A DNA stretch of 64,000 nt from the human T2T-CHM13v2.0 reference genome, Homo sapiens: assembly GCF_009914755.1 (NCBI RefSeq), contig NC_060929.1; one strand, 5' to 3'. Shown here in pieces: positions 47,450 through 50,400 of the stretch (positions are counted from its first letter, which is position 1; every line of letters begins with the position of its first letter). Below the pieces are notes generated by a model. It had not been told where the DNA came from and did not search any database. It saw nothing but the letters and a program-made list of their open reading frames with translations. The translations under genes and the position numbers were made by a program.

Positions 47450-50400
47450 TCATTGTCAATTTTGTACAATTGTAAAAAACACGTAACACACAATTTACTA
47501 TCTTAAACATTTTGAAGTGTGCAGTTTAGTACTTTAAGTATGTTTTCGTTATTGTGAGCAAATACCCACAACGTTTTCGTCTTGCAGATCTGAAACTCTA
47601 TACCCATTAAACAAAACCTTCGCTTTACACGCCCCCTGCCCCCGCAATCTGTCCGTGGTAACCGCCATTCTGTTTTCTGTTTCTATGAATTTGACTACTT
47701 TAGATTCCTGATATAAAAGGAATCATGCAATATTTGTCCTTTTGTGCTGGCTTATTTCAGTTATCATAATGCCTTCAAGTTTCATCCATTTGTAGCATGT
47801 AACAGGATAGCCTTCTTTGGAAGACTGAATAATATCCTAATATATATATTATATAACATAATATATTATATAACATATAACATAATATATTATATAACAT
47901 ATAACATAATATATTATATAACATATAACATAATATATTATATAACATATAACATAATATATTATATAACATATAACATAATATATTATATAACATATAA
48001 CATAATATATTATATAACATATAATATAATATATTATATAACATATAATATAATATATAACATAATATATTATATGACATATAATATATTATATAACATA
48101 ATATATTATATGACATATAATATATTATATAACATAATATATAACATATAATATATTATACAACATATAATATATTATATAACATAATATATTATATAAC
48201 AAATATACTATATTATATAACATAATATATTATATAACAAATATACTATATTATATAACATAATATATTATATAACAAATATACTATATTATATAACATA
48301 ATATATTATATAACAAATATACTATATTATATAACATAATATATTATATAACAAATATACTATATTATATAACATAATATATTATATAACATAATATAAT
48401 ATATTATATAACATAATATATTATATAACATAATATAATATATTATATAACATAATATATTATATAACATAATATATAACATAACATAATATACTATATA
48501 ACATAATATATAACATAATATATTATATAACATAATATATTATATAACATAATATATTATATAACAATATATTATATAACATAATATATTATATAACAAT
48601 ATATTATATAACATAGAATATAATATATTATATAACAGAATATAATATATTATATAACATAGAATATATTATATTATATAACATAGAATACATTATATAA
48701 CAATATATTATATAACATAGAATATATTATATAAGAGAATATATTATATAACATAGAATATATTATATAACAGAATATATTATATAACAGAATATATTAT
48801 ATAACATAGAATATATTATATAACATATAATATATTATATAACAGAATACATTATATAACATAGAATATATTATATAACATAGAATATATAACAGAATAT
48901 ATTATATAACAGAATATATTATGTAACATAGAATATATTATATAACATAGAATATATTATATAACATAGAATATTATATGACATGTATGTATTCTCATAT
49001 ATAACATATATGTATGTAGCTCTCTATTGTATTTGTATATGTATACACATACACGTATGTGTGTGTTTGTGTGTATACATATACACATATGTATATGTGT
49101 ATGTGTGTATATATATTGATAATGTATATAATATATTATATTATATGTTATATATTATATTATGTTATATATTATATTATATGTTATGCAATATATTATA
49201 TTATTTATATAATATAATTATAATATAATTATAATACATAACATATATAATATAATATATAACATATAATATATTATATTACATAACATATATAATATAT
49301 TACATAACATATAATATATTACACAACATATAATATATTATATTACACAACATATAATATATTATATTACACAACATATAACATATTATATTATATAACA
49401 TATAATATATTATATTATATAACATATATATATAACATATAATATATTATATTATATAACATATAATATATTATATTATATAACATATAATATATTATAT
49501 TATATAACATAATATATTATATTATATAACATATAATATATATATTATATGTTATATATATTATATATATATATAACATATAATATATATTATATATATA
49601 TATATATATAATAAATCCAGGTAAATATTTCCTGGATATTTACCCAGAAATAGAATTGCTGGATCATGTGGTAGTTCTACTATTACGAACACCTCTATGC
49701 ACACAAACTATAAATTAAATTTTTTAAGGACTTTCCATATTGTTCTCCATACTGGTTGCGCCTTTTTGCAACCCCATTAATAGTGCACAAGGGTTCTAAT
49801 TTACTCCATGTTCTTGTAAACAATTGTTATTTTTTGATTTTTTTATACTAAGCATCTTAAAGAGTGTGAGGTAATATCTCATTATGGTTTTGATTTACAT
49901 TTCTCTGATGGTTTGTGATGTTAAGAATCACTTTAGTCTTTAATGGTCATTTGTATATCTTCTTTAGAGAAATGTCTAAGTCTTGTGCTTATTTTTTAAT
50001 CAGGTTATTTGATTTTTTTGTTGTTGAGTTGTAGAAGTTCTTTATATATTCTGGATACTAACCCTTATCAAGTATATAGTTTGTAAATATTTTTTTCCAT
50101 TTCATAGGTTGCTTTTTAACCTACTGATTATGTCTTTTGATGCACAAAAGTTGTTAAATGATATTATTTCATTAGTTTATTTTTGCTTTTGTTGCCTGTG
50201 TTTTGGTGTCATAGCCAATAAATCACTGCCAACCAAGTCCAATGCCATGTAGTTTTTTCTCTATGTTTTCTTTTAGTAGTTTTATAGTTGTAGGTCTTAT
50301 GTTTAGGTCTTTAATCCATTAAGAATTAATATTTTTATGTGGTATAAAATAAAGTTCAACTTTATTATTTTTTAATGTTGATATAAGTTTTTGCGGTACC

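What the first reader, a model, noticed from the sequence alone, without database searches (positions are those of the whole stretch)
49679..49714. 36-bp templated insertion copied exactly, inverted, from 4.7 kb away
Seen: ACTATTACGAACACCTCTATGCACACAAACTATAAA interrupts the minus-strand L1MB between GTAGTTCT and TTAAATTTTT. It is the perfect reverse complement of 54385-54420 inside the neighbouring L1PA15/16 copy. It retains a CpG and reads ACTATAAA where L1 normally reads ACTAGAAA (compare 19275-19282). Both host elements are heavily diverged, so 36/36 identity points to a much more recent local copy event. Inference: this is a break-repair scar (polymerase theta-type templated insertion or template switch), about 65 bp from the AT-rich array.
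Basis: partly seen in the sequence, partly recalled or inferred. Interest (0 to 1): 0.72.

Follow-up and report, generated by a model that had tools for sequence, protein, structure and literature searches.

The report
Short local DNA-repair copy in LINE-1
A 36-base stretch inside an old human LINE-1 repeat is an exact back-to-front copy of DNA 4.7 kb away, most likely a scar left when a chromosome break was patched; this is a known, ordinary kind of event and is probably harmless.

Summary
Observation confirmed. 49679-49714 is the exact reverse complement of 54385-54420. These are the only 2 exact copies in the 3.1-Gb genome; 1 other site has one mismatch and 42 have two. It is a true insertion: 33 of 35 relatives of the host L1 span the site and hold 0-4 bases where the host holds 36. 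The donor differs from 28 relatives at 22% of sites, with 0 of 50,582 36-bp windows identical, so the copy is local and later than the donor: likely within the last fifth to half of its age (medians 4-18 My by model). It need not be human-specific. It fits the repair-mediated duplications of Pace et al. 2009 (824 with donors within 5 kb) but is below their 50-bp cut-off. The polymerase theta label is not supported as stated: published theta insertions copy flanks within about 30 bp in tracts rarely over 10 bp, and the junctions here have 1 and 0 bp of microhomology, at chance level. A possible second scar, a fold-back palindrome, sits 40-65 bp away at the edge of the AT-rich array. New member of a known kind; low interest.

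The parts
49679..49714 (+). Inserted copy (acceptor): 36-bp exact match to the donor; 33-35 bp newly added, first 1-3 bases shared with the host
54385..54420 (-). Donor tract inside a minus-strand L1 (L1PA15/16-like by recall), 4,670 bp from the insert
47450..51377 (-). Host: older minus-strand L1 3' part (L1MB-like by recall), collinear with relatives on both sides of the AT array; does not contain the region homologous to the donor tract; ends approximate
   Evidence: host 49625-51377 aligns to donor element 52099-53819 only, 30.5% mismatch
51600..55800 (-). Donor L1 element, ends approximate (read by eye and from alignments); 22% mean mismatch to 28 relatives
47844..49611 (.). AT-rich minisatellite-like array (period 12/17/24) standing in place of about 120 bp of host L1; 67 bp from the insert
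49615..49637 (.). Quasi-palindrome (11 pairs, one bulge) at the array's right edge; left arm is not host L1 sequence; possible fold-back scar

Best explanation
The 36-mer is an exact inverted copy of a unique local donor, inserted into an older L1, and it is likely a germline repair-mediated duplication left at a DNA break. Shown: insertion, local donor, inverted orientation, net +33 bp, 1-bp (at most 3-bp) overlap at the left junction and none at the right, no target-site duplication or poly(A). Inferred: a break or broken fork in the host L1; one 3' end primed on the donor 4.7 kb away with little microhomology, copied 33-35 nt, let go, and was end-joined to the other end with loss of 0-2 bp. 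The orientation is what would result if the right-hand end folded back on its own strand after long resection (inferred from geometry only). The polymerase is not identifiable from the sequence. The scar is likely neutral.
For: Only 2 exact genome-wide sites, both local. None of 43 non-local sites within 2 mismatches has both rare states, CpG and T33. 33 of 35 host relatives span the site: 29 hold 3 bases under the 36 columns, the others 0-4. 0 of 50,582 donor-versus-relative 36-bp windows are identical. The chance of identity if the copy were as old as the donor is 4e-7 to 3e-4. Flanks are unrelated. Pace et al. 2009 (PMC2671141, parts 1-4 of 8 read): 824 of 1,136 insertions in TEs had donors within 5 kb, with microhomology, small deletions or filler and no poly(A). 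[quoted passage not shown]
Against: In-register microhomology (1,0) is no more than chance (P=0.55). 4.7 kb is in the tail of Pace's distances (71 of 1,136 at 3-5 kb), and 36 bp is below their 50-bp limit. No empty orthologous site was seen: the pre-insertion state is inferred from paralogues. A break is not directly evidenced, and a replication template switch would leave the same sequence.
Confidence: 0.68

Rival explanations
1. Replication template switch without a frank double-strand break (FoSTeS/MMBIR-type): a fork stalled near the AT-rich array switched to the opposite strand 4.7 kb ahead, copied about 35 nt and returned.
For: Inverted, local template, as in MMB-TI signatures (PMC8421209, passages). 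1.77-kb AT array 67 bp away and a fold-back palindrome at its edge. Off-register 3- and 4-nt matches at the two junctions (P=0.04, post hoc).
Against: MMB-TI as searched in that paper have templates within 100 bp and are flanked by microhomology; here in-register microhomology is 1 and 0 bp. No copy-number change accompanies the event.
Confidence: 0.17
2. Canonical polymerase theta templated insertion (TMEJ scar).
For: Short templated insert with a 0-2-bp loss in AT-rich DNA; theta makes inverted-repeat insertions and favours AT-rich flanks. The neighbouring palindrome 49615-49637 does look like a theta-type fold-back.
Against: In PMC7165422 templates are typically within 30 bp, first tracts rarely exceed 10 bp, and distal templates are under 0.1% of repair. 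Here there is one 33-35-nt tract from 4.7 kb away, with chance-level microhomology.
Confidence: 0.08
3. Capture of an L1 RNA/cDNA fragment from the active family (non-classical, endonuclease-independent L1 insertion); identity to the neighbour is coincidence or dates from the neighbour's own insertion.
For: The insert is internal L1 sequence without poly(A) or target-site duplication; NCLI fragments run from 34 bp and mostly come with target deletions (PMC1920257, passages).
Against: No other genomic site is identical and only 1 is within one mismatch. The shared T33 and CpG are rare in the family. CpGs of this age survive at about 2.5-3%. Identity at the donor's age has P of 3e-4 or less. RNA transcribed from this very donor copy cannot be excluded, but no gene is annotated here.
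Confidence: 0.04
4. Assembly error or a change private to the CHM13 cell line.
For: Perfect identity is compatible with zero age; only one assembly was available to me.
Against: A 36-bp inverted piece placed with a net 2-3-bp loss 4.7 kb away is not a usual assembler error (own knowledge). No reads were available.
Confidence: 0.03

Closest known systems
Repair-mediated duplications (RDs), Pace, Sen, Batzer, Feschotte 2009, PMC2671141
   Same: Insertion interrupting a TE, one donor elsewhere in the genome, donor within 5 kb on the same chromosome, small deletion and microhomology, no poly(A); an inverted example is described (ACSBG2 exon).
   Different: 36 bp against their 50-bp minimum (mean 162 bp); distance in the 3-5-kb tail; microhomology 1 bp against their 2-9 nt; no orthologous empty site checked. 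A search of their Table S1 for numbers beginning 328/329/330 gave no chr5 row (the hg18 position is my estimate).
Doublets (Thomas et al. 2004); paper not held, known from its mention in PMC2671141 and from recall
   Same: Short exact pair at kb distance, one copy an insertion; Pace et al. link the class to imperfect break repair.
   Different: By recall, doublets are mostly on the same strand and about 1 kb apart; this one is inverted and 4.7 kb apart.
Polymerase theta templated insertions (TINS), Carvajal-Garcia et al. 2020, PMC7165422
   Same: Short templated insert, may be inverted, AT-rich context.
   Different: Template 4.7 kb away rather than within about 30 bp; one 33-35-nt tract rather than tracts rarely over 10 nt.
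Class 2 TSIPs (Onozawa and Aplan 2016, PMC5110952) and MMB-TIs (PMC8421209)
   Same: Germline templated patch without TSD or poly(A); MMB-TIs are inverted copies.
   Different: TSIP donors are distant regions; MMB-TI templates lie within 100 bp; polymorphism here is unknown.
Non-classical L1 insertions (PMC1920257)
   Same: Short internal L1 fragment, no poly(A), no TSD.
   Different: The source is an old, mutated local genomic copy, not an active family member.

Membership tests
Repair-mediated duplication (Pace 2009) | Insertion interrupts a TE whose two halves are collinear | tested here: met
   33 of 35 host relatives span the site with 0-4 bases under the 36 columns
Repair-mediated duplication (Pace 2009) | [quoted passage not shown] | tested here: met
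   2 exact sites in 3.1 Gb; L1 relatives exist at 1-3 mismatches
Repair-mediated duplication (Pace 2009) | Donor 50 bp to 5 kb away on the same chromosome | tested here: met
   4,670 bp between the copies
Repair-mediated duplication (Pace 2009) | No poly(A/T) tail; breakpoints with deletion, filler or microhomology | tested here: met
   No tail, no TSD; either a 2-bp loss with 1-bp overlap (20 of 33 relatives read ATT) or a 3-bp overlap with no loss (2 of 33 read ACT)
Repair-mediated duplication (Pace 2009) | At least 50 bp (stated by the authors as a limit of their BLAST pipeline, not of the mechanism) | tested here: not met
   36 bp; it falls outside their catalogue and inside the doublet size range
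Repair-mediated duplication (Pace 2009) | Empty orthologous site in another primate | not testable with these tools
   No other primate or human assembly is held (no relatives)
Polymerase theta TINS | Template in flanking DNA, typically within 30 bp | tested here: not met
   Template 4.7 kb away
Polymerase theta TINS | Single synthesis tracts rarely over 10 bp; longer inserts are multi-round | tested here: not met
   One unbroken 33-35-nt tract
Polymerase theta TINS | Microhomology at the junctions above chance | tested here: inconclusive
   In register 1 and 0 bp, P=0.55; off register 3 and 4 nt, P=0.04 post hoc
Polymerase theta TINS | Genetic dependence on POLQ | not testable with these tools
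   Historical germline event
Non-classical L1 insertion | Sequence derives from a then-active L1 family | tested here: not met
   Matches one old local copy, including rare states; no other exact site
Ectopic gene conversion between L1 copies | Donor and acceptor at homologous positions with homologous flanks | tested here: not met
   Flanks do not align; the host lacks the homologous region

The most novel reading that the evidence does not exclude
The long AT-rich array is a germline breakage site that has left a cluster of scars in its host L1: loss of about 120 bp, a fold-back palindrome at its edge, and a kb-range inverted patch 67 bp away, the last recording at least 4.7 kb of resection with fold-back. 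If the insert is also polymorphic in people, the locus would be a datable natural example linking AT-array fragility to short local duplications.
Probability: 0.12. Interest if true: 0.42.

Novelty: new member of a known kind. Interest (0 to 1): 0.17.

Why it matters
Little by itself. It is one more short repair-mediated duplication in intergenic repeat DNA with no annotated gene or element in the window; Pace et al. counted 824 longer ones in human TEs. It shows that the class extends below the 50-bp catalogue limit and can be traced to a donor by rare repeat variants. It would matter more if such inserts prove to be enriched beside long AT arrays genome-wide.

Tried and rejected
Non-local donor: rejected. 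Gene conversion between homologous L1 positions: rejected. Twin-priming inversion at the host's own insertion: rejected, since the insert matches a much less diverged neighbour, not the host. Target-site duplication: none seen. Microhomology as evidence: not above chance in register. A second, older inverted copy from the same donor (L1 fragment about 46946-47129, 79-81% identical to 53043-53230): rejected; it shares 5 departures from the majority with the donor, against 1-11 with 17 family relatives. Missing 120 bp of host hidden in the array: no alignment above shuffles in 8 of 8 relatives tested. Local source for the mid-array piece 48975-49130: only simple-repeat matches of 14 bp or less. 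Other doublet-like pairs: in 270,161 bases (window plus 63 loci), 38 exact pairs of 20 bp or more; 34 had aligning flanks; of the other 4, this was the only one in the window. A family-wide count of the CpG and T33 states was not obtained, so frequencies come from listed hits only. Loci for an unbiased donor-relative set could not be cut, so the 28 relatives used were chosen by closeness to the 36-mer, and that 36-mer plus 36 bp on each side was masked in the statistics. Thomas et al. 2004 is not held. A search for AT-rich + TA repeats + double-strand breaks + templated insertions found 0 papers. Earlier scan findings were not open.

Full report
Observation. Window 49679-49714 is the exact reverse complement of 54385-54420, and the match ends sharply on both sides. 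Apart from one 41-bp Alu-type pair it is the longest exact pair outside the AT array. The window's own genome (3.12 Gb) holds 2 exact copies, the two local ones; 1 further site at one mismatch and 42 at two; 227 sites in all within three.

It is an insertion. I took 35 relatives of the host L1 (6, 29); 33 span the site. Under the 36 insert columns, 29 hold 3 bases and the other four hold 0, 1, 2 or 4. Between fixed anchors the host has 56 bases and the commonest relative length is 23 (22 of 33). The net gain is about 33 bp. Twenty of 33 relatives read ATT there and 2 read ACT, so the event was either 35 new bases with a 1-bp overlap and a 2-bp loss, or 33 new bases with a 3-bp overlap and no loss. 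The right junction is blunt. There is no target-site duplication or poly(A).

The donor is the local copy. The donor element differs from 28 relatives at 22% of aligned sites; with the 36-mer and 36 bp on either side masked, 0 of 50,582 36-bp windows are identical and the longest exact run is 35. These relatives were picked by closeness to the 36-mer; an unbiased set could not be fetched, but the best hits of a 1-kb donor query were also 74-81% identical over long matches. Insert and donor share two uncommon states. T at position 33 occurs in 3, and the CpG in 10, of the 98 non-local sites listed, never together. CpG-origin sites elsewhere in the donor survive at 1 of 33 (2.5% in relatives). 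Donor and insert flanks do not align, and the host aligns only to 52099-53819 of the donor element (30.5% mismatch), so this is not gene conversion between homologous positions.

Age. The donor departs from the family majority at 222 of 2,089 non-CpG columns. Identity over 36 bp would have probability 4e-7 (with CpG decay) or 3e-4 (without) if the copy were as old as the donor. The 95% upper bound is 0.20-0.50 of the donor's age by model. In years, with clocks of 2.2e-9 (from Pace et al.) or 1.3e-9 (my choice) and a flat or Pace-rate prior (the rate before 30 My was assumed by me), medians are 4-18 My, 95% bounds are 18-43 My, and P(under 6 My) is 0.24-0.63. So it is younger than its hosts but may well be shared with apes.

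Junctions. In-register microhomology is 1 and 0 bp; 55% of random donor positions do as well. Slightly off register there are 3- and 4-nt matches (P=0.04 for both, chosen after the fact). This is weak. On geometry, the inverted orientation is what would follow if the right-hand 3' end (minus strand) primed on its own strand 4.7 kb away after long resection, or if the left end invaded the opposite strand. This is inference.

Surroundings. The host L1 continues on the far side of the AT-rich array 47844-49611. In 17 of the 26 relatives whose computed gap lay between -50 and 600 bp, 105-130 bp of L1 lies where the array stands, and that stretch is not detectable within the array (8 of 8 relatives tested). 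At the array's right edge, 49615-49637 forms a near-perfect palindrome of 11 pairs whose left arm is not host sequence. Five separate sites of 11 or more pairs occur in 62 kb outside the array, about 1 per 12 kb, so one within 20 bp of this junction has a chance of about 0.3% (post hoc). It looks like a fold-back scar, and it fits the theta signature better than the 36-mer does. Whether it shares an origin with the insert is unknown.

Comparison with what is known. Pace et al. 2009 (PMC2671141; parts 1-4 of 8, passages, and two searches of Table S1 read) found 1,136 TE-interrupting insertions with a single donor. In 824 the donor lay within 5 kb (753 within 3 kb), with microhomology, small deletions or filler and no poly(A); they ascribed these to SDSA-like break repair and tied them to the shorter doublets of Thomas et al. 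(not held; recalled). This locus meets each of their criteria that I could test except the 50-bp minimum, which they describe as a limit of their BLAST step. No chr5 row with numbers beginning 328, 329 or 330 is in their table (the hg18 position is my estimate). Carvajal-Garcia et al. 2020 (PMC7165422; passages and part 1 of section 7) place theta templates typically within 30 bp, first tracts rarely over 10 bp and distal templates under 0.1% of repair, so the theta label fails two tested features. The Min et al. preprint (passages) reports templated insertions made by invasion or annealing and then end joining, 59% with one blunt and one microhomology end, like the junctions here. MMB-TIs (PMC8421209, passages) are inverted but were searched within 100 bp. 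Class 2 TSIPs (PMC5110952, part 1 of 4) have distant donors. NCLIs (PMC1920257, passages) start at 34 bp and were ascribed mainly to L1 RNA capture.

Verdict. Real, well spotted and traceable to a local donor, but a small member of a described class of repair scars, in intergenic repeat DNA with no annotated gene or element (hub annotation). The mechanism class is likely; the enzyme, the date and any polymorphism are open. Interest 0.17.

Noticed in passing
window 49610-49644: Filler at the right edge of the AT array made of inverted copies of the adjacent host bases (7-bp arms 49615-49621/49631-49637; 9-bp arms 49620-49628/49636-49644); looks like a fold-back or iterative local synthesis scar.
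   Followed up: partly
window 47844-49611: The 1.77-kb AT array replaces about 120 bp of its host L1. It has internal switches of unit orientation (about 49125-49200 and 49540-49560) and a TG/CA-rich middle piece (48975-49130) with no local source found.
   Followed up: partly
window about 46946-47129: About 185-bp plus-strand internal L1 fragment without an obvious poly(A), 79-81% identical to 53043-53230; not specifically derived from that neighbour.
   Followed up: yes
window 14455-19977: The younger L1 matches the minus-strand donor L1 directly at 14855-16369 and in inverted orientation at 19026-19924: an internally inverted L1, as from twin priming.
   Followed up: no
window 57932-57949 and 57959-57976; 27060-27106; 27459-27499; 42943-42985: Short near-tandem or tandem duplications of 18-24 bp.
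   Followed up: no
window 33978-34007, 36031-36055, 36763-36785: Three further short palindromes of 11-13 pairs, two of them 730 bp apart.
   Followed up: no
L033 2774-2865 and 2945-3036: 92-bp exact direct repeat at 171-bp spacing, cut by the end of the locus; probably a recent tandem duplication.
   Followed up: no
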